Source: Escherichia phage vB_Eco_OMNI12. From it: 64,000 bases of DNA. The translations under genes and the position numbers were made by a program. Of the stretch, positions 2,403 to 52,645 are shown piece after piece. How positions within the stretch are numbered: the stretch's first letter is position 1; each line of letters begins with the position of its first letter. Below the pieces are notes generated by a model that was not told the DNA's origin, ran no database searches, and saw nothing but the letters and a program-made list of their open reading frames with translations. The stretch lies in the sequence record OL362041.1; one strand, 5' to 3'.

Positions 2403-2427
2403 TTCAATATCCTCATTTGCCCAATTA

Positions 2428-2457
2428 ATTATACCACATCCTTGTGGTAAAGTAAAC
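2428..2457 (-). promoter_or_regulatory. T4-type early promoter upstream of rIIA.1/rIIA
   Basis: Minus strand reads GTTTAC, 18-nt spacer, TGGTATAAT; plus-strand text attataccacatccttgtggtaaagtaaac. Confidence 0.6.
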
Positions 2458-4274
2458 TACTGGCTCATCCATTCTTTACGAAGGTCAGCATTATCTCCCA
2501 TGAGCATTTCAAAAAGCTCTTTCCAGTTCTCAGGAAGTTTAACAACATCATATACTGGATTTTGAATCATCTCACGATATTCAGATTTTTCCAAAGAGCC
2601 AAGTCCTTTAATATAACGGATGCTATGTTTAGGTAGAGCATCTTTAGCACTCTCATATTCAGCGACTGTATAAAACCATTCTTGTTTTTTACCAATCTGT
2701 GCGATGATTACAGGAGTTTTGACAAAGCGAATTCGTCCTTGCTCAAACAGTTCTGGCCAATTACTAAAAAATCCAAGCAGAGAAGGATAAATGCTTCCTA
2801 GACCATCATGGTCAGCATCAGTCATAATAGCAATATTATGATAATTCAAGTTTTCAGCTTTTTCACCGAGAACTAATCCAGTGATTGCGCAAATATCAAA
2901 CAGTTCTTTGTTTTTAAGCATGTCAGCATATGACATACCCCAACTGTTGAGAACTTTACCACGTAATGGATAACCACCGTGAAGTTCTTTATCACGAACA
3001 TCAATAAGATATCCGATAGCCGAATCACCCTCAGTCAAGAAAAGAGTAGTATCAGCATCTTTACCACAAAGATTCGCTTTAATATGTTTATGAACCTTAG
3101 CTTTAGAAGCCTTTTTAGCTGCTTTAGTTTCTGCTGCTTTTTCTGCCGCTAATTTACGAGCCAAAGCAGCTTCAATAATCGGCATTAGAATTGCTTCATT
3201 ATTTAGAATAGCACGTGAAATCTTTTTAGCATCAAGTTGAATATGACTACGGATTTCACCAAATGGAGAAGTCAAACGCTCTTTAGTTTGAGAATCAAAT
3301 CGCATGTTTTTCATATCACGAACAAACATAACGATTGTCAAACATTCTTTAACGCGTGCTTTAGTCACATCAATTTTGAACTTACGTTTGATTTGTGGAA
3401 TAAGGTCTTCACAAATATCATCCATAACACAGTCAATGTGATGGCCACCATTCTTAGTATGAATGTTATTAACGTATGTTAATTGACGAAAACCATCCGG
3501 TGAACGACCAACTGCAATAGAACAGTTTTCTTGTTCTTGAACGATAGCATGCTCATCATATTGGCGTGCATATTTCTTAAAATTGCCCTGAACCTTTTTA
3601 CCATTAAAGGTAAATTGAATATCAGGATAAACAACAGCAAGTGTCTGGAGACGATCTAATGTAATGTCAAGATAAACTTGAGATAATTCATTAGTTTCAA
3701 ATGACATAAAATCTGGAATGAAAGTAACACGAGTTCCTTTCCATTTTCCAGGAATAGTTTCCCATGATTTATTTTCCATGCCATTTGAACAACGAACTAC
3801 AATATTATTTTGACCATCGCCAGTTTCACCGACAAACATCACAGAAAAAATGTTAGTTAAACTAGAACCAACACCATTCATACCACCGGTGACGCGTTCT
3901 TTATCATCACCAAAGTTACCACCTGCTTTTGGAATAGTCCACGCAGCAACTGGACCAGGAATTTCTTCACCGGTAGGTGTTTTGACCATCGCTTGTGGAA
4001 TACCACGACCGTTATCTTCAACTGTTACTTGATTGTTTTTAATAGTAACATTAATTTTATTTGCGAATTTAAACTTAGTACGAATACCTTCATCTACTGA
4101 GTTATCGATAATTTCATCAATAAGCTTAACAAGACCAGGTACATACTGAACACTTTCCCATTTACCAAACAGAAAGCGCTCATGCATTTCATTAGCGGAA
4201 GAGCCAATGTACATGCCGCTACGCTTTTTGATATGTTCAATATCGCTCAGAATTTTAATTTCATTCTTAATCAT
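2457..4274 (-). CDS. 39: DNA topoisomerase II large subunit (GyrB-like ATPase plus Toprim), uninterrupted gene 39 form
   Basis: About 605 aa from ATG at 4274 (track start at 4277 is GTG); GHKL ATPase and Toprim motifs; one continuous ORF spanning what T4 splits into genes 39 and 60. Confidence 0.9.
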   Translation of the reverse strand: MIKNEIKILSDIEHIKKRSGMYIGSSANEMHERFLFGKWESVQYVPGLVKLIDEIIDNSVDEGIRTKFKFANKINVTIKNNQVTVEDNGRGIPQAMVKTPTGEEIPGPVAAWTIPKAGGNFGDDKERVTGGMNGVGSSLTNIFSVMFVGETGDGQNNIVVRCSNGMENKSWETIPGKWKGTRVTFIPDFMSFETNELSQVYLDITLDRLQTLAVVYPDIQFTFNGKKVQGNFKKYARQYDEHAIVQEQENCSIAVGRSPDGFRQLTYVNNIHTKNGGHHIDCVMDDICEDLIPQIKRKFKIDVTKARVKECLTIVMFVRDMKNMRFDSQTKERLTSPFGEIRSHIQLDAKKISRAILNNEAILMPIIEAALARKLAAEKAAETKAAKKASKAKVHKHIKANLCGKDADTTLFLTEGDSAIGYLIDVRDKELHGGYPLRGKVLNSWGMSYADMLKNKELFDICAITGLVLGEKAENLNYHNIAIMTDADHDGLGSIYPSLLGFFSNWPELFEQGRIRFVKTPVIIAQIGKKQEWFYTVAEYESAKDALPKHSIRYIKGLGSLEKSEYREMIQNPVYDVVKLPENWKELFEMLMGDNADLRKEWMSQ

Positions 4275-4326
4275 CACTTATCCTCGTTTGGTTTCGGGAA
4301 TATTATACTCCGGTAATCATAAAGCT

Positions 4327-5161: not shown

Positions 5162-5575
5162 TTATTCCTTAAAGTGAGCTTTCAACATCTGATACAAGGA
5201 CCATGCCTGTTCATCATTTTCAATAGTAACTTTCATTACAGGGAATTTAGATTGATCAGTTATCGGTGCAGATTCTTCCTGCTCTTCAGCTGCCTGGTAT
5301 GGATTTTCAACTTCATTAAAGAATTCAGCTTCATTCGATGAAAGCCAAATAAAATCTTCATCCAAAATATCTTTACCAGAAGATAGTACTAAATTTCCAG
5401 CAAATGACATAATTTTAATAGGACGCCCAAGAGCATCCACATCTAAAATTTTAAAAGGATGCATACCTAAACGGCGTGCATAGATTCCGTTATCAGTATG
5501 GTCTTTAATAAAATTTTCTTGAGCTTGTTTATTTTTAAATTGATACCATTTATTAACTTCAAATTTAATAGCCAT
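5162..5575 (-). CDS. Hypothetical protein (137 aa), positional equivalent of T4 goF
   Basis: ORF size and position between gene 39 region and cef-like ORF; no motif recognised. Confidence 0.45.
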
Positions 5576-5793
5576 TAATAAATTTCCTTCCAGTAAGTTG
5601 TACCATCTTCAGTGATTTCACGAAATACACCGTAAATTGGTTGTTTATCCCCAACCTTTTCATACACATAAACCGAAGTCAAGTGAGTAAACTTAGCAGT
5701 GTGTTCCTTTTGAACTACTACCAAATCTGGATCGAATAATACATCTTCAAATTCATCATTAGTGCAATTCTGAACAATTTTACGTTTCATCAT
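5575..5793 (-). CDS. Small protein (71-72 aa), positional equivalent of T4 cef
   Basis: Size and position only. Confidence 0.45.
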
Positions 5794-46613: not shown

Positions 46614-46792
46614 TTAGAAATAGACTTTTCGCCATTAGAATAATAAACTTCGAGTTTAGCACGATTATTTTTAATTTGAATAACCTTGGCTGTCATCAAA
46701 GTTCCATACCCATAATAAACTGCAACTTCATCACCTACATATACCGCGCTTCCGCGATAATCATGAATATAGTCAGTTCCTTCGAGCATCAT
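46577..46792 (-). CDS. Hypothetical small protein (71 aa)
   Basis: ORF. Confidence 0.4.
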   Translation of the reverse strand: MMLEGTDYIHDYRGSAVYVGDEVAVYYGYGTLMTAKVIQIKNNRAKLEVYYSNGEKSISKWKYGDCMVKLG

Positions 46793-47052
46793 TTAAAATA
46801 TTCTCGCAGTTGGTCAAATCCACCAATATGACTTCCATCAGGAGCAAATACCTGAGGCATTGTTAAGCCGATTTGAGTATCACGACCTAGTTTAGTCAGA
46901 AGCTCAGCGATTTTCTCATCATCAAAAACACCTTTTTCCGGCATAATGTTGATAAATTCAAACGGCTGTTTCTTCACAGTCAAAAGACGTTTTGCATTAT
47001 CACAATACACACATTTGTGGATGTTGCTATCATAACCATATACTTTAAACAT
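46789..47052 (-). CDS. nrdC: NrdC thioredoxin/glutaredoxin (CVYC)
   Basis: 87 aa as T4 NrdC; redox motif CVYC. Confidence 0.85.
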   Translation of the reverse strand: MFKVYGYDSNIHKCVYCDNAKRLLTVKKQPFEFINIMPEKGVFDDEKIAELLTKLGRDTQIGLTMPQVFAPDGSHIGGFDQLREYFK

Positions 47053-47053
47053 A

Positions 47054-47296
47054 TTATTCCTTAATTCCTAGTACTTGTTTAAAAGTCTCGTCGTAATCAA
47101 GACTTTGACCTGTTTGTTCTTTATGTTTGTATATAATATCACTTACTTCTGATAGCATATTTTTATATGAACGAGTTAAAGCAGATTTAAGCACGCTGTA
47201 TCTATCAGGAAATTTACCATGTTCATTATAATAAGCTATTGCTAATTCACGGACTGCCTTTTCAGCAGCCTCCATATATTCTTTACGCTTGGTCAT
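47054..47296 (-). CDS. Hypothetical protein (80 aa)
   Basis: ORF. Confidence 0.45.
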
Positions 47297-47298
47297 TT

Positions 47299-47688
47299 TT
47301 AATCCAAAATATTATTAGGCATTGGTTGAACACTCACAAGTTCTTTAAAGAACTCAGTAGAGTCAGGCAATTTAACCATTTCCGGAGCATGCTTACTGAA
47401 TTTATGTTTACATTGACGGCATTTATATTCAAGCTCTGGTTTACGCCAGTTAATCAACTGAACTTGTTCAGTACCGCATTCAGGGCAATTAGGAACGTTT
47501 TTAGAAGCTCTTTCACGTCGTTCAACCATAGCCATAATAGCATCCCATGCTGGAGGTTTAAAATCTAAATCGTCGCAGCCGTGAATCTTTCCACGCATTT
47601 CCATATCATCTTCCTCACCAGCCATAATAATTTTAATTAAACTGGAATTACTTGAAGCTGCAATGTCTTCTAATAAACGCTTTTTCAT
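47299..47688 (-). CDS. Zinc-ribbon protein (129 aa)
   Basis: CPECG ... CRQC motif. Confidence 0.5.
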
Positions 47689-48614
47689 TTCAATACCTCA
47701 ATAGCATTACGTAAACCATTTGCTTTTGCATTAAGAGCTTTTAACAATTTGGTGTGTTCTGCAATTTGGGCTTCAACTTCAATCAAACGGGCATTGAGAT
47801 ATTCACGTTCTTCACTCAGATTATCAACCTTTTCTACTTTAGGCTCTTTTACAACTGTCTTATATGTATTAGGGTTCTTCAGTTTAATTAGAATGCGTGA
47901 ACTGTATAACATTGAACCATTATCTTCGGTTTCGTCATACATTTCCACTACGTCCATAATTTTTAACATCATGCGGAGTTTATAAGACAACGAACGAATA
48001 GTTTTGTTGTGCTTATTAATTTCTTTAGCTGTCATGGTGCCAAGATTACGTGAGTAATAATAAGGAACCTGGATATTAATTAATACTGATGAACCACCTG
48101 GCTTGTGTGTTACTTCATCAGCAATAACCCAGTCCTTAACATGAACTGTATTTGTACGGTCATCGCCCGCGGTAAATAGTTTGCGAGCATGCTTAAAAAG
48201 CATATTCACTTGGTCATTGAATTGACAAGCAAATTTATCAGCAAATTTAGTTTCAGGAATGGTAGAAAACCAATCAGCCAAATGAGTCTTTTTAACATCA
48301 TTAACAATAGTAAATTCAACCAAATCGGTTATAGATGTCTCAGATTTAATGAAGCTCGGCTTCATAAAGTTTTTAATGTTCTCATGAGCTACAGTAGAAG
48401 ATAACATACGAGAACGTTTAAACCATTCAAGCAAATTGCCTAACGAATGAGAATACGCATTTTGTGTATCTTTACAAATATGGTTTTCCCATCCAATATA
48501 GTCTAAAAAATCACGAAGAATATTATTGATTACTGCTCTGTGTCCTATCTGATAATTACGATGTTTAGTAATAAGACTGTCAAAATAATCAATATAATGT
48601 TTACGAGTTTTCAT
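47685..48614 (-). CDS. Paralog-family protein A with C-terminal coiled coil (309 aa)
   Basis: MKTR N-terminus, internal K.MDVV segment and coiled-coil C-terminus shared with neighbours. Confidence 0.55.
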   Translation of the reverse strand: MKTRKHYIDYFDSLITKHRNYQIGHRAVINNILRDFLDYIGWENHICKDTQNAYSHSLGNLLEWFKRSRMLSSTVAHENIKNFMKPSFIKSETSITDLVEFTIVNDVKKTHLADWFSTIPETKFADKFACQFNDQVNMLFKHARKLFTAGDDRTNTVHVKDWVIADEVTHKPGGSSVLINIQVPYYYSRNLGTMTAKEINKHNKTIRSLSYKLRMMLKIMDVVEMYDETEDNGSMLYSSRILIKLKNPNTYKTVVKEPKVEKVDNLSEEREYLNARLIEVEAQIAEHTKLLKALNAKANGLRNAIEVLK

Positions 48615-48666
48615 GTTCTTCTCACTTGGTTAATGATTTATACTCCGAGCCATCCTTGGCTTTAAA

Positions 48667-49668
48667 TTACTTAATTAACTGTAAAGCTTGTTCCAGACGA
48701 TCCAGGCGATTAACAGATTCTTCCCAAATCCTTTTAGACTGCTCATATTCTTTCTGTGCTTTATTAGAAATTTCTAGAACTTCTTTATAAGCTTTTTCTA
48801 ATGCAATAACTTCTGGACGAATTTCTACCGGTTCAGGTGAATCGTCAAGACATTCCATTAGTTCCTCAAGGGTGGTTTCTTCTTTAGGAGTATTCACAAT
48901 TTCATCACATTTTTGCTGGTAAATTTCTTTATCAGTCGGTGAGTACGCACACTTTACTTCACGAAGACTAACTACAATTTTATATCCTTCCCAGCCGCAT
49001 ATATTCTTAAAAGGATAAGTATGAATATTTTCTACTGTTTCCATACAAAGTAATGCGGTCTCTAATTGACGAGTTATAGTGCTAGCAATTGAGAAAAATT
49101 TATTAATGTTCTTTTGGTTAGTTTCTGGTGTAAAAAATCCATAATTCACAAAAAAGCTTACTTTATTTTTATCAAGTTCATATTCTTTTATGATAATCAT
49201 ATCAGAAGCCAAAGGATGAATTTGACGATAATCGCCATAACATAATTTAGAAGCTGATTTTAGAATCTGTCCTTTGAAAAGTCTGAAATTACTAATCCAA
49301 CGACGAGTAAAAATATTCTCAGGGTCTTCTTTATTATTAAGATGATAAGAATTAACATCACCGAACCAATTATATCCTACTACATCTTTGGTTCGTTTAA
49401 TTTCTTTCCCAAAATTACCAAGAATATCCCGATTAACCAAATATGAAAGAAGACGAGACTCTTTAAAGGTTTTCTTGATAACATCTTTATCTACACGGCT
49501 AGAAATTTTACGAATTTCATGAATAAATTTAGTAGAAGAAACAATACTTGCATCAACACTATTGAGCCATTGATTGATAATAGAAAGAACGCTATTTTGG
49601 CCAAACATCGGTATAGCTTTATCATCAATAACGCTATTGAATGATTTGATATATTCGTTACGAGTCAT
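48667..49668 (-). CDS. Paralog-family protein B with C-terminal coiled coil (about 333 aa)
   Basis: Track start is TTG inside a promoter; ATG at 49668 with GAGGAG SD. Confidence 0.55.
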   Translation of the reverse strand: MTRNEYIKSFNSVIDDKAIPMFGQNSVLSIINQWLNSVDASIVSSTKFIHEIRKISSRVDKDVIKKTFKESRLLSYLVNRDILGNFGKEIKRTKDVVGYNWFGDVNSYHLNNKEDPENIFTRRWISNFRLFKGQILKSASKLCYGDYRQIHPLASDMIIIKEYELDKNKVSFFVNYGFFTPETNQKNINKFFSIASTITRQLETALLCMETVENIHTYPFKNICGWEGYKIVVSLREVKCAYSPTDKEIYQQKCDEIVNTPKEETTLEELMECLDDSPEPVEIRPEVIALEKAYKEVLEISNKAQKEYEQSKRIWEESVNRLDRLEQALQLIK

Positions 49669-49696
49669 AATAATCTCCTCAGTAGAAAGTAAGAAC

Positions 49697-49726
49697 ATTA
49701 TACCACATCCTTGTGGCAAAGTAAAC
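49697..49726 (-). promoter_or_regulatory. T4-type early promoter, near-identical to the rIIA.1 promoter
   Basis: attataccacatccttgtggcaaagtaaac versus attataccacatccttgtggtaaagtaaac at 2428. Confidence 0.55.
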
Positions 49727-50751
49727 TAGTTCAGTGCATTTAGTGCATTGTTCAGTTTAGAACGTTGCTTTGTCAGATTTTGAACCCTTGACTGAGCTTG
49801 TTCTAACGCCTTTTCAACTTCTAGCATTTCATTGGTCGCTTTAACGAGTTCATCATCTACTGCCTTAAGAGACTTTTCAATCGCATCAGCGTGCCATTTT
49901 TCTACAGGTTTAAAATTTGAATTTTCAGTAGGAAGAAAACTCACTTTATTAAGTTTACATGCATCTATGTTACTTGAACTGTACATCCAACATTTAGGAT
50001 CGTTTGATAAGTAATTGGATAAATTTAAATTTAAGGTATCTTGCACTTCCTGCTTTTTCTCTTGAACAATTTCATCCTTTCTCAAAAATTCATATTTAAA
50101 TGAAACGATCATATCAAGTTCATATGTTGTTGTATGTTCCCAATTTCGCTCAAAACGAGGTAAAATCTTAGATTGAACAGCGGCAACAACATCCATATAC
50201 TTAAATGCTTCTGTCAACTGTGATTTAAGGCATTCACAAATTGAAAGAGAATTTTTTGTATTAGGTTTAAAGCTAATTCGTGCAGTTCTGTTATTTTCTT
50301 TTAATGGTCTTACTTCCATCTGAAGAGTATAACCATCAAATTTCAGGTTCTTTAAGTTAATATCAGAACCTTTTAATCGACTAGCCGTCGACAAAATTTG
50401 CTTTAATTGTCTACGGAACAGAGCAATAAATCTCCATTCAATACGATAATGATTTGGATTAAAAAATCCAGATGATAAATTAACCTTACTCTGACCAACG
50501 CCTTGAACAAATAGAGGATTTTTATAATCAATAGTTTTACCGAAATCGGTGAGCTGCTCACGAGCAGTCATTTGTGTAATATACCCCGCTTTACTAAAAT
50601 GACGTAACCATTCACTGCTATTCATATATTTAAAGTGAATATCACGATTAACTTTATCAGGGTCTAAATTATTTTGGCACAAAAATGTCATAACATCACG
50701 AGTATAGCTGGCATTACGAACCATATCTTCAATTTGAGAACGAGTTTTCAT
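49726..50751 (-). CDS. Paralog-family protein C with C-terminal coiled coil (341 aa)
   Basis: MKTR N-terminus; ATG with AAGGA SD. Confidence 0.55.
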   Translation of the reverse strand: MKTRSQIEDMVRNASYTRDVMTFLCQNNLDPDKVNRDIHFKYMNSSEWLRHFSKAGYITQMTAREQLTDFGKTIDYKNPLFVQGVGQSKVNLSSGFFNPNHYRIEWRFIALFRRQLKQILSTASRLKGSDINLKNLKFDGYTLQMEVRPLKENNRTARISFKPNTKNSLSICECLKSQLTEAFKYMDVVAAVQSKILPRFERNWEHTTTYELDMIVSFKYEFLRKDEIVQEKKQEVQDTLNLNLSNYLSNDPKCWMYSSSNIDACKLNKVSFLPTENSNFKPVEKWHADAIEKSLKAVDDELVKATNEMLEVEKALEQAQSRVQNLTKQRSKLNNALNALN

Positions 50752-50759
50752 AGTGTTCC

Positions 50760-51647
50760 TTAAGATTTAAGTAAATCAACAATTTTAATTAACTTTTCAC
50801 GCTCAGATTTAGCTTTACTACTCAGTCCAGATAGTCTGAAAATTTCATCATCATATTGCTGAATAGAAATATTCAGCTCTTCAATCTGCTTATTAAAATA
50901 ATCAATTTGTTCAGAATGTTTTTCGTTACTACGAACTGGTACAGGTTTTGTAGGTAATTTAGATGAACTGGATTCATCCTGGCGATAAATTAAAATACAA
51001 CTTGAACCAATTGGACATTTTGCACCAGATGAATATTCTAATGTTCCAGCTTCTTTTAAAACTTCAAAAGCTAAACAGAGATGATGCCCCATATTGACAT
51101 AATCTGTAGAGCGAGCTCTGACGTAATAATCATCTCCGCGAATACTAAATTTAAAGCATTTAAGGTCTTCTGTATTATTGGTCTTAAAAATCATTTGTTT
51201 ATCTAGACCCTTAGCTAATCGAGCGCCTAATGCTAATAATCGTCGTTGATTTTCCCACAAATCCTCAATCATTTGATCGAATGATAATTTTGGCATTAGT
51301 CGACCATAAAGGTCATATCCTTTATTATAATTACGAAGGATTTCACTCGCGTTAATACGAGACAACGCTCCAATTTTATTAAGGGCTTTCATGATGCGAT
51401 TAGATAAACCCATTCCAGACCCGTTTGTTCGTTGTAAATGTTTTTCTAATCCAAACCCAATATCAACTTTAAATTTATCTAAAATTTCAGCATGAACGTC
51501 TCTGTCAATAACATTCAAATCCAAAGTTGGGTTAAATCTATGAAAAAATTTATCTGGCTCTCCACGACGAAGTACAGTCCATTCATTCAATTTTTTATTA
51601 ACTAAAGATTTAATTACTGCATTGACATTATTAATTACTACTGACAT
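50760..51647 (-). CDS. Possible fourth paralog with C-terminal coiled coil (about 295 aa)
   Basis: Track start is GTG; ATG at 51647 with GAGGA SD; similarity to A-C weaker. Confidence 0.5.
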   Translation of the reverse strand: MSVVINNVNAVIKSLVNKKLNEWTVLRRGEPDKFFHRFNPTLDLNVIDRDVHAEILDKFKVDIGFGLEKHLQRTNGSGMGLSNRIMKALNKIGALSRINASEILRNYNKGYDLYGRLMPKLSFDQMIEDLWENQRRLLALGARLAKGLDKQMIFKTNNTEDLKCFKFSIRGDDYYVRARSTDYVNMGHHLCLAFEVLKEAGTLEYSSGAKCPIGSSCILIYRQDESSSSKLPTKPVPVRSNEKHSEQIDYFNKQIEELNISIQQYDDEIFRLSGLSSKAKSEREKLIKIVDLLKS

Positions 51648-51654
51648 ATTTTCC

Positions 51655-52062
51655 TCACTCAATTTCAATTTTACTAAATACACAGAATAAGATAGAACAG
51701 ACTATATAAGCACCACACACAGATTGAACTAATACCATTCCAAAGAACCAAACAATATTATCAAACAATGTCTGTTTTACGTCGAAAGGACGTAAACTTA
51801 CAGTAATATTATCGCCTTTTTCTATTGATGAATACATCTCTGGTGAAATATATTCGCTAAATCTATAACCGTCTTTGAGTTCATATACGGCAATAAACGA
51901 TAAACTAGACCCCTTTCCTTGAGTTCCTGTAAGGGTATTAACTACAGTAACATCATAATCTTTATAATGCATATAATCATTAATAGCATAATAACCATAT
52001 GCAACTACTACACATAAACAGCATATCAATAAATTCAATCTTTTAATTATCAACTGTTTCAT
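51655..52062 (-). CDS. Membrane protein (135 aa)
   Basis: N- and C-terminal hydrophobic segments. Confidence 0.5.
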   Translation of the reverse strand: MKQLIIKRLNLLICCLCVVVAYGYYAINDYMHYKDYDVTVVNTLTGTQGKGSSLSFIAVYELKDGYRFSEYISPEMYSSIEKGDNITVSLRPFDVKQTLFDNIVWFFGMVLVQSVCGAYIVCSILFCVFSKIEIE

Positions 52063-52117: not shown

Positions 52118-52645
52118 TTATGCGAGTACCGTCTTTAACCGTTCTTCAAACTTCCGAAGAGTATTCTGGCGTTCAGCTCTTTGCTTTTTGTAAGTTTCAA
52201 TACGCTCTGAAATGAGAGTGTATCGTTCATTTACTGATTCTTTCATAAAATCAGGAATTTCACGAGAAGCTTTAATCTCGTCAAATTTATCAATAACAGC
52301 TTGCTCTTCAGCAATTAAGTTATCATACATCAAAATATCTTTCTTGATGAACTCAATATCTTCTTGAGTTACACGAGATAATTTAGATGCTTTATCCTTT
52401 TTGTACTGTTCGTTAGTATCACGAGACCAGTGTAATGTACGATTTTTATTCGTATTCTTATAAATTTCTACAATACCAATCTCATCAATAATAACGATCC
52501 AATTCCAACGGGATTTGTAAATTTGTCCTCCATCAACCGTGATTTCACCTCCGATTGAGATGTCATTAAAGAACTTGCTTTGTGCTTCAGATTTAAATTT
52601 ACCATCGTTGTAATTTACCAGGTTGAAAATATCTTTAGCGTTCAT
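52118..52645 (-). CDS. Hypothetical protein (about 175 aa)
   Basis: Track start is TTG inside a promoter; ATG at 52645 with GGAGGA SD. Confidence 0.5.
   Translation of the reverse strand: MNAKDIFNLVNYNDGKFKSEAQSKFFNDISIGGEITVDGGQIYKSRWNWIVIIDEIGIVEIYKNTNKNRTLHWSRDTNEQYKKDKASKLSRVTQEDIEFIKKDILMYDNLIAEEQAVIDKFDEIKASREIPDFMKESVNERYTLISERIETYKKQRAERQNTLRKFEERLKTVLA

What the first reader, a model, noticed from the sequence alone, without database searches (positions are those of the whole stretch)
47685..51683. Tandem array of three, possibly four, paralogous 300-350-aa genes with C-terminal coiled coils
Four consecutive genes encode proteins of about 309, 333, 341 and 295 aa. Each ends in a heptad-like coiled-coil segment (for example LEKAYKEVLEISNKAQKEYEQSKRIWEESVNRLDRLEQALQLIK). 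Three start MKTR/MTR, and the first three share an internal K.MDVV-type segment. Membership of the fourth rests on size and coiled-coil tail only. One carries a promoter near-identical to the rIIA.1 promoter. Function is unknown; diversifying paralog arrays in phages are often anti-defence or host-takeover factors.
Basis: seen in the sequence. Interest (0 to 1): 0.45.

Follow-up and report, generated by a model that had tools for sequence, protein, structure and literature searches.

The report
T4 nrdC.3–nrdC.6 anti-defence paralogue array
Four neighbouring genes of a T4-like phage are very divergent copies of one phage-only protein family, and because one copy is already known to switch off a bacterial immune protein (Dsr1), the other three are good candidates for blocking other bacterial defences.

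Summary
Four consecutive minus-strand genes (309, 333, 341 and 295 aa) are the orthologues of T4 nrdC.3, nrdC.4, nrdC.5 and nrdC.6 in a Tequatrovirus. Each ends in a 48–59-aa tail with significant 3.5-residue hydrophobic periodicity.

Pairwise BLAST links only nrdC.3 and nrdC.4. Profile-profile comparison with the tails removed links all four. It does so through single-copy relatives found in the same genomic slot of other T4-like genera: AB–C E=2e-6, and the bridging profile against AB, D and C gives 5e-9, 3e-6 and 6e-5. Reversed decoys never beat E=0.017. So the fourth gene is a member.

The family is confined to T4-like phages, has no solved or annotated relatives, and is split over at least three Pfam and eight PHROG families. 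Copy number varies by genus (1, 2, 3 or 4).

Function is partly known. T4 nrdC.5 counteracts the SIR2 defence protein Dsr1 (Srikant et al. 2022). Flanking genes nrdC.1 (anti-Septu), nrdC.8 (anti-Druantia III) and gp49.2 (anti-OLD) are also anti-defence genes. All four array genes are non-essential on a laboratory host.

The most likely reading is an expanded family of oligomeric inhibitors of immune sensors. That mechanism is inferred, not shown.

The parts
47685..48614 (-). Gene A, nrdC.3 orthologue (309 aa). This is the non-T4 allelic type, 62% identical to T4 NrdC.3 and 94-98% to NR1/Bas37-type phages.
   Evidence: ORF; phrog_1435 E=6e-116; annotated NrdC.3 in LR990704; allele comparison.
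47688..47831 (-). A tail (residues 262-309), heptad-periodic, ending ...[10 protein letters not shown].
   Evidence: Periodicity p=0.025; dN/dS 0.07 against 0.29 for the body.
48667..49668 (-). Gene B, nrdC.4 orthologue (333 aa), 97.6% identical to T4 NrdC.4.
   Evidence: phrog_1435 E=1.5e-167; PF26897.
48670..48813 (-). B tail (residues 286-333), heptad-periodic, ending ...RLEQALQLIK.
   Evidence: Periodicity p=0.0002; dN/dS 0.04.
49696..49726 (-). T4 early-type promoter (GTTTACT, 17 nt, TG-TATAAT) driving B and A. The spacer contains the inverted repeat CCACA-AGGA-TGTGG. A near-identical copy lies at 2427-2457(-) upstream of rIIA.1.
49726..50751 (-). Gene C, nrdC.5 orthologue (341 aa), Pfam DUF7235; 91.5% identical to T4 NrdC.5, the published anti-Dsr1 factor.
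   Evidence: Pfam E=3e-113; phrog_2351.
49729..49905 (-). C tail (residues 283-341), a long predicted helix, ending ...QRSKLNNALNALN.
   Evidence: AF2 helix 282-340; periodicity p=0.0004.
50760..51647 (-). Gene D, nrdC.6 orthologue (295 aa). Its start is translationally close-coupled to the end of nrdC.7, and C starts 8 nt after D's stop.
   Evidence: phrog_2257 E=1.4e-151; PF26899; AF2 model pLDDT 78.
50763..50921 (-). D tail (residues 243-295), heptad-periodic, ending ...EREKLIKIVDLLKS.
   Evidence: AF2 helices 242-271 and 276-294; periodicity p=0.003; dN/dS 0.01.
52118..52645 (-). Context, not a family member: the nrdC.8 orthologue, 99% identical to bas37_0203, which is reported to inhibit Druantia III.
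   Evidence: hhalign against the family not significant.
47054..47296 (-). Context, not a family member: the nrdC.1 orthologue (98.8% to T4), reported to inhibit Septu.

Best explanation
The locus is the nrdC.3-nrdC.4-nrdC.5-nrdC.6 block of a Tequatrovirus. The four genes are ancient, highly diverged paralogues of one family that is specific to T4-like phages. They share one architecture: an N-terminal helical domain, a beta-beta-alpha-beta-beta unit, a variable and probably disordered linker, and a 50-60-residue coiled-coil tail with a conserved C-terminal end. The genes are early, non-essential accessory genes inside an anti-defence island. NrdC.5 neutralises the SIR2 NADase defence protein Dsr1 (shown by others in T4). 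I infer that the whole family consists of stoichiometric inhibitors of host immune proteins. In this model the fast-evolving globular body provides target specificity. The strongly conserved tail oligomerises the inhibitor so that it can engage oligomeric sensors before the late phage proteins that trigger them appear (for Dsr1, the major capsid protein). Duplication and divergence would then have given E. coli-infecting genera three or four specificities. Shown here or elsewhere: gene identity, paralogy, tail periodicity, phylogenetic restriction, copy-number variation, and the published NrdC.5 phenotype. Inferred: anti-defence roles for A, B and D, direct binding, and oligomerisation.
For: Identity: 97% DNA identity to Tequatroviruses, with NrdC.3-.6 annotation. 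Paralogy with tails removed: A-B E=3.6e-14; AB-C 1.7e-6 over 170 columns; AB against D plus bridging sequences 1e-7. A bridging-only profile hits AB at 4.9e-9, D at 2.6e-6 and C at 5.8e-5. Leave-one-out keeps 1e-4 to 4e-7. 24 reversed decoys all give E>=0.017. Independent libraries: the Kanagawavirus homologue (phrog_26858) hits phrog_2257 at 7e-6 and DUF7235/phrog_2351 at 3e-7/1e-6; window B hits the phrog_26858 body at 1.3e-3. Shared motifs are in register across 14 representatives. The AF2 models of C and D have the same order of secondary-structure elements. The D model matches syntenic 300-335-aa proteins of distant T4-like phages, including a tandem pair in Acj61. Function: T4 nrdC.5 restores plating on Dsr1. 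Neighbours nrdC.1, nrdC.8 and gp49.2 are anti-defence genes. All four array genes are non-essential in T4. dN/dS is higher than in neighbours. The genes are individually dispensable in nature: frameshifts, fusions and genus-specific absence. Tails are under strong purifying selection (dN/dS 0.01-0.07). Dsr1 senses the capsid protein through a TPR sensor.
Against: No experiment addresses nrdC.3, nrdC.4 or nrdC.6. The HIDEN-SEQ text names other genes as hits, and nothing in its held supplements shows a phenotype for these three. D is not significantly similar to A, B or C directly (P=0.05-0.36). The C model is poor (pLDDT 51), and no A or B model was made, so a common fold is not shown structurally. 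Foldseek with the D model did not list T4-type NrdC.3/4/5 entries. No region has dN/dS above 1. The mechanism by which NrdC.5 blocks Dsr1 is unknown, and oligomerisation is only predicted from sequence periodicity.
Confidence: 0.62

Rival explanations
1. Only NrdC.5 is an anti-defence protein. The other three paralogues have diverged to unrelated host-takeover or housekeeping roles, such as modulation of host or phage complexes, and share only a scaffold.
For: Extreme divergence between paralogues (below 25% identity). D and B orthologues are much better conserved across genera than C (HMM E=1e-134 to 1e-170 against 1e-13 to 1e-26), which suggests different selective regimes. No phenotype is reported for them.
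Against: They are non-essential, variably present or inactivated in nature, flanked by validated anti-defence genes, and evolve faster than their neighbours. These are all typical of counter-defence accessory genes.
Confidence: 0.22
2. The four proteins assemble through their related tails into one hetero-oligomeric complex that acts as a single machine.
For: All tails share a C-terminal signature, (Q/E)RxKLxxA(L/I/M)xxL(K/N), and a P-(V/I)-(E/K)...H...I(E/K) tail start. The genes are co-transcribed in two adjacent early units. Tails are highly constrained.
Against: Composition differs by genus: D-C-B, D-C-A, single copy, or two copies. Single members are lost or frameshifted in viable phages. 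NrdC.5 alone, expressed from a plasmid, complements a phage lacking it. Away from the terminal motif, tail sequences differ strongly between paralogues, which favours homotypic pairing.
Confidence: 0.1
3. The genes are unrelated, and the resemblance is convergent: similar length plus a generic coiled coil.
For: No significant pairwise BLAST similarity except A-B. Pfam and PHROGs keep them in separate families.
Against: Tail-free profile comparisons are significant and collinear, robust to leave-one-out and far above decoys. Motifs shared across families are in register. Curated PHROG/Pfam cross-hits occur through the Kanagawavirus homologue. The slot is syntenic across genera.
Confidence: 0.05

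Closest known systems
T4 NrdC.5 (Pfam DUF7235, PF23882), the anti-Dsr1 counter-defence factor of Srikant, Guegler & Laub 2022
   Same: Gene C is its orthologue (91.5% aa identity, same position, full-length DUF7235 match at E=3e-113). A, B and D are distant paralogues with the same architecture.
   Different: The window protein differs at about 8% of residues, mostly in residues 1-60 and 181-281, and its activity against Dsr1 is untested. A, B and D do not match the DUF7235 model and have no known target.
DSAD1, the anti-DSR2 protein of SPbeta-like phages
   Same: Functional analogy only: a phage protein that disarms a defence-associated sirtuin, known to bind the sensor region of DSR2 and compete with the activating phage structural protein.
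Other paralogous or clustered counter-defence loci of T-even phages (internal proteins IPI/IPII/IPIII; the dmd-tifA-adfA 'anti-TA island')
   Same: Non-essential early or injected accessory genes, clustered, variable between related phages, each neutralising a different host defence.
   Different: Those proteins are small and unrelated in sequence. Here, four 300-340-aa proteins derive from one ancestral gene and carry a conserved coiled-coil tail.
Thioredoxin/glutaredoxin (the label many GenBank records give these genes)
   Same: Nothing beyond the gene-name prefix 'nrdC.'.
   Different: No thioredoxin-fold Pfam match and no CxxC active site. The label is propagated misannotation.

Membership tests
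DUF7235 / PF23882 / phrog_2351 (NrdC.5 family) | Full-length match to the family HMM above the gathering score | tested here: met
   Gene C: E=3e-113, 378.7 bits against cutoff 30, residues 1-341; phrog_2351 E=2.4e-165. Genes A, B and D do not match this model.
DUF7235 / NrdC.5 family | Counteracts Dsr1 (SIR2) defence | not testable with these tools
   Shown for T4 nrdC.5 only (PMC9391042). The window orthologue is 91.5% identical.
phrog_1435 / PF26897 (NrdC.3/NrdC.4 family) | Full-length match to the family profile | tested here: met
   A E=5.7e-116 and B E=1.5e-167 to phrog_1435. B relatives carry PF26897. A-B hhalign E=3.6e-14 with tails removed.
phrog_2257 / PF26899 (NrdC.6 family) | Full-length match to the family profile | tested here: met
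   D E=1.4e-151. All 105 relatives carry PF26899.
Proposed NrdC.3-6 superfamily | Significant similarity of the globular bodies, independent of the coiled coil | tested here: met
   Tail-trimmed hhalign: AB-C 1.7e-6; AB-Dx 1e-7; bridging-only profile against AB 4.9e-9, D 2.6e-6, C 5.8e-5; decoys >=0.017; robust to leave-one-out. Direct D against A, B or C is not significant.
Proposed NrdC.3-6 superfamily | Common three-dimensional fold | tested here: inconclusive
   C and D models share the order helical domain / b-b-a-b-b / linker / long helix, but the C model has pLDDT 51. No A or B model was made. The D model matches distant syntenic homologues at TM 0.37-0.50. The C-model search was uninformative.
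Proposed NrdC.3-6 superfamily | Conserved genomic slot between nrdC and nrdC.10 in T4-like phages | tested here: met
   Found in Tequatro-, Mosig-, Dhaka- and VR-type phages, and in Kanagawa-, Jiaoda-, Moon-, Teguna-, Lasalle- and Lazarusvirus loci.
Coiled-coil proteins | Heptad (3.5-residue) hydrophobic periodicity in a long helix free of Pro and nearly free of Gly | tested here: met
   p=0.025, 0.0002, 0.0004 and 0.003 for A-D; helices predicted in C and D.
Coiled-coil proteins | Actual oligomerisation | not testable with these tools
   No multimer prediction or experiment was available.
DSAD1-like sirtuin inhibitors | Sequence or fold homology to DSAD1 | tested here: not met
Thioredoxin/glutaredoxin | Thioredoxin-fold domain with a CxxC motif | tested here: not met
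   No Trx/Grx Pfam or NCBIfam match in A-D. The true NrdC glutaredoxin is the separate 87-aa gene at 46789-47052.

The most novel reading that the evidence does not exclude
NrdC.3, NrdC.4, NrdC.5, NrdC.6 and their single-copy relatives across Straboviridae form one modular family of immune-sensor inhibitors. A conserved coiled-coil tail serves as a common oligomerisation or docking module, and a rapidly diverging body is retargeted by duplication to different host pattern-recognition proteins, for example different members of the Dsr1/Avs7 TPR-sensor clade that detect late structural proteins. If so, each E. coli T-even phage carries a small 'repertoire' of sensor blockers derived from one ancestral gene.
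Probability: 0.3. Interest if true: 0.7.

Novelty: new member of a known kind. Interest (0 to 1): 0.5.

Why it matters
T4 is the best-studied phage, yet nrdC.3, nrdC.4 and nrdC.6 have no assigned function, and databases file the four genes in separate 'unknown' families or mislabel them as thioredoxins. Showing that they are paralogues of the anti-Dsr1 protein NrdC.5, inside an island where nrdC.1, nrdC.8 and gp49.2 also block defences, turns three orphan genes into specific, cheaply testable counter-defence candidates. It also defines the conserved and variable parts (core motifs, variable linker, constrained tail) needed for mechanistic work on how Dsr1 is inhibited. Finally, it gives a clear case of counter-defence diversification by tandem duplication, with genus-specific copy number.

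Tried and rejected
1. My first C-family HMM hit A at 1e-9. This was an artefact of including P0056, a natural NrdC.5::NrdC.3 fusion protein. I removed it and repeated all comparisons.
2. Direct hhalign of D against A, B or C is not significant, with or without tails.
3. One iteration of HMM search from the D body reached the Jiaodavirus protein but not A, B or C above decoy level.
4. NrdC.8 also has a heptad tail, so I tested it as a possible fifth member. It is not significant.
6. Foldseek of the low-confidence C model gave TM below 0.27, which is uninformative.
7. The AFDB50 library was unavailable.
8. PDB sequence searches and NCBIfam found nothing. The weak Pfam/NCBIfam hits (PHL domain, tyrosine recombinase N-terminus, DUF3905) are far below their cutoffs and I treat them as chance.
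9. A search for positive selection found dN/dS below 1 in all regions.
10. The Acj61 tandem pair is unrecognisable by sequence against all four families. Its link rests on Foldseek and synteny only.
11. P0230 (NrdC.5 tail on an unrelated body, upstream of nrdC.4) lies on an 803-bp metagenomic contig and may be an assembly chimera, so I do not rely on it.
12. I checked whether bas37_0203 (anti-Druantia III) might be an array member. It is NrdC.8.
Full report
**What is there.** The window comes from a T4-like phage. The 5.8 kb around the finding is about 97% identical to many Tequatrovirus genomes. In Escherichia phage vB_Eco_NR1 and in T4 the four genes are annotated NrdC.3, NrdC.4, NrdC.5 and NrdC.6.

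All four lie on the minus strand:
- A: 47685-48614, 309 aa.
- B: 48667-49668, 333 aa.
- C: 49726-50751, 341 aa.
- D: 50760-51647, 295 aa.

The ATG at 51647 follows a GAGG Shine-Dalgarno, and orthologues are 295-296 aa. The stated N-termini (MKTR/MTR) are correct. The MDVV segment is present in A and C, and appears as METV in B.

**Tails.** Hydrophobicity in the last 48-59 residues has a dominant period of 3.4-3.5. Against shuffles of each tail, p=0.025 for A, 2e-4 for B, 4e-4 for C and 3e-3 for D. In B, C and D no body window of the same protein scores higher. AlphaFold2 predicts C 282-340 and D 242-294 as long helices.

Right-aligned tails from 18 family members share two features: a terminal signature, roughly (Q/E)RxKLxxA(L/I/M)xxL(K/N)-COOH, and a P-(V/I)-(E/K)...H...I(E/K) motif at the start of the tail. 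Within orthologous groups the tails are the most constrained part of A, B and D, with dN/dS of 0.01-0.07.

**Promoter.** A T4 early-type promoter, GTTTACTTTGCCACAAGGATGTGGTATAATG, lies at 49696-49726(-), directly upstream of B. A copy with 2 mismatches lies at 2427-2457(-), directly upstream of the rIIA.1 orthologue, where none is expected by chance. D follows nrdC.7 closely, and C starts 8 nt after D's stop. The array is therefore read as two adjacent units, D-C and B-A.

**Are they paralogues?** BLASTP links only A and B (E=2e-5). PHROGs places A and B in phrog_1435, C in phrog_2351 (Pfam DUF7235) and D in phrog_2257.

An early apparent C-A link was an artefact. The C alignment contained P0056, a natural NrdC.5::NrdC.3 fusion, which I removed.

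I then collected the locus from other T4-like genera, using the family itself and the conserved neighbour NrdC.10 as anchors. With the last 62 residues removed from every sequence, hhalign gives these results:

| Comparison | E-value |
|---|---|
| A-B | 3.6e-14 |
| B-C | 7e-6 |
| AB-C (170 collinear columns) | 1.7e-6 |
| AB against D plus four single-copy 'bridging' proteins | 1e-7 |
| Bridging-only profile against AB | 4.9e-9 |
| Bridging-only profile against B | 1e-7 |
| Bridging-only profile against A | 9e-7 |
| Bridging-only profile against D | 2.6e-6 |
| Bridging-only profile against C | 5.8e-5 |

The bridging proteins come from Yersinia fHe-Yen9-01, Enterobacter IME523, Klebsiella phiA85 and Salmonella KM16. 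Leaving out any one of them keeps AB-Dx at 1e-4 to 4e-7, in the same register. The 24 comparisons with column-reversed decoys never did better than E=0.017.

D compared directly with A, B or C is not significant (P=0.05-0.36), so its membership is transitive.

Curated libraries agree independently. The IME523 protein (phrog_26858) also hits phrog_2257 (E=7e-6, body plus tail) and phrog_2351/DUF7235 (1e-6 and 3e-7). Window B hits the phrog_26858 body at 1.3e-3.

A 14-sequence superfamily alignment shows motifs in register:
- M(K)TRxEY at the N-terminus.
- LSxxxAxxxLxNFGK.
- A(S/R)(K/R)LxxGxD followed by hxhK.
- The 'MDVV' helix.

**Structure.** The D model is usable (pLDDT 78, pTM 0.65). The C model is poor (pLDDT 51) apart from the tail and a moderately confident beta-beta-alpha-beta-beta unit. 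Both show the same order: helical N-domain, b-b-a-b-b, disordered linker, long helix.

Foldseek of D against BFVD finds 300-335-aa uncharacterised proteins of distant T4-like phages with 10-16% identity. These include IME523 at E=6e-7, PM2, fHyAci03, Acj9 and Mineola. Two of the hits are adjacent Acj61 proteins (E=3e-4 and 2e-3) that form a tandem pair in the same slot between nrdC and nrdC.10.

**Distribution and dynamics.** A profile search of 1.84 billion representative proteins finds only 13 clusters for the C family. All relatives found are from T4-like phages.

Copy number varies by genus:

| Phage group | Array composition |
|---|---|
| Tequatrovirus | D-C-B-A |
| VR-type and Dhakavirus | D-C-B |
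| Mosigvirus (phage 55) | D-C-A |
| Kanagawa-, Jiaoda-, Moon-, Tegunavirus | one copy |
| Acinetobacter phage Acj61 | two copies |
| Acinetobacter phage DLP1 | one copy |

Within Tequatrovirus, A exists as two alleles only 62% identical. The window carries the non-T4 type. C is the most variable orthologue: 465 of 535 records fall in the 80-95% identity band. Its variation is concentrated in residues 1-60 and 181-281, around an almost invariant core at 61-180.

Array genes have dN/dS of 0.1-0.4, against about 0-0.1 for most neighbours at similar dS. No region exceeds 1.

Natural knock-outs and rearrangements occur:
- A frameshifted nrdC.4.
- A tail frameshift in the T4 RefSeq nrdC.6.
- An internal duplication in the Sf25 NrdC.6.
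- The NrdC.5::NrdC.3 fusion.

**Function.** Srikant, Guegler and Laub (eLife 2022, PMC9391042) showed that a T4 deletion mutant cannot plate on E. coli carrying the SIR2 defence gene dsr1. Expression of T4 nrdC.5 alone restores plating. Gene C is 91.5% identical to that protein.

Dsr1 has a TPR sensor homologous to that of Avs7, and a phage major capsid protein triggers it (PMC12803255).

The neighbourhood is an anti-defence island:
- gp49.2 inhibits OLD (PMC13096335).
- nrdC.1 inhibits Septu (HIDEN-SEQ preprint).
- bas37_0203 inhibits Druantia III. I identified it as the NrdC.8 orthologue, 99% identical to window 52118-52645.

HIDEN-SEQ supplementary tables class T4 nrdC.3, nrdC.4, nrdC.5 and nrdC.6 as non-essential on the laboratory host. 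I found no report on the function of nrdC.3, nrdC.4 or nrdC.6.

**Interpretation.** The best-supported reading is an expanded family of counter-defence proteins. Three points favour independently acting inhibitors over one hetero-complex: NrdC.5 complements on its own, the genes are individually dispensable, and composition differs by genus.

The proposed mechanism has two parts. The divergent body binds a host immune sensor early in infection, and the conserved coiled-coil tail oligomerises the inhibitor. This is an inference by analogy with DSAD1 acting on DSR2, to which these proteins are not homologous.

**Novelty and score.** The genes and the NrdC.5 phenotype are known. What appears new is the unification of four 'unknown' families into one superfamily containing the anti-Dsr1 protein, its architecture and motifs, and its copy-number pattern. 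I found none of this in the searched literature, and it is not reflected in Pfam or PHROGs. I rate it a new member of a known kind, of moderate interest: not startling to a specialist, but it makes the function of three orphan T4 genes directly testable.

Noticed in passing
window 2457-4277 (-): This is a single 606-aa ORF where T4 has the split topoisomerase genes 60 and 39 with the translational-bypass insertion. This phage appears to carry the unsplit gene.
   Followed up: partly
window 49696-49726 (-) and 2427-2457 (-): The two near-identical early promoters share an inverted repeat (CCACA-AGGA-TGTGG) inside the spacer. The terminator scan also flags it as a hairpin. Its possible dual role or regulatory meaning was not explored.
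   Followed up: no
P0056 (metagenomic/phage protein, 299 aa): This is a natural in-frame fusion of the NrdC.5 body to the C-terminal two-thirds of NrdC.3, which implies deletion of nrdC.4. It contaminated my first C-family profile.
   Followed up: yes
L024 (T4 NC_000866) 5480-5700: The T4 RefSeq nrdC.6 is annotated as 275 aa because of a frameshift inside the tail. The +1 frame restores the full tail seen in the window, and the HIDEN-SEQ T4 annotation has an 891-bp gene.
   Followed up: yes
P0121 (Shigella phage Sf25 NrdC.6, 378 aa); L006 7971-9003: The Sf25 NrdC.6 carries an internal duplication of about 83 aa. One Tequatrovirus contig has nrdC.4 split into 193-aa and 158-aa ORFs by a frameshift.
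   Followed up: partly
window 47685-48614 and 47299-47688: nrdC.3 exists as two allelic types within Tequatrovirus (62% aa identity; 357 records at >=90% and 291 at 60-80%). The adjacent nrdC.2 is also dimorphic: the window has 129 aa with a CxxC...CxxC motif, against 104 aa in T4.
   Followed up: partly
window 52118-52645 (-) and 47054-47296 (-): The nrdC.8 orthologue is 99% identical to bas37_0203 (reported anti-Druantia III), and the nrdC.1 orthologue is 98.8% identical to T4 nrdC.1 (reported anti-Septu). Validated counter-defence genes therefore flank the array. NrdC.8 also has a heptad-like C-terminal tail but is not a family member.
   Followed up: yes
GenBank records: NrdC.3 to NrdC.10 are widely annotated as 'thioredoxin', apparently by propagation of the nrdC gene-name prefix. 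None has a thioredoxin domain.
   Followed up: yes
L025 (803-bp ENA contig), P0230: This 173-aa protein has an unrelated N-terminal region and a near-identical NrdC.5 tail, and sits directly upstream of an nrdC.4 start. It is either a body-swapped variant or an assembly chimera.
   Followed up: partly
phage records ACG-C40, Pinarejo, Manna: These phages retain only the tail-encoding fragment of nrdC.3, nrdC.6 or nrdC.4 respectively, which suggests deletions that end in or near the tails.
   Followed up: no
L017-L020 (e.g. L017 12985-13755): A conserved, unrelated 256-263-aa gene (49-73% identical among four genera) precedes the single-copy family member in Kanagawa-, Jiaoda-, Moon- and Tegunavirus. 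Its function is unknown.
   Followed up: no
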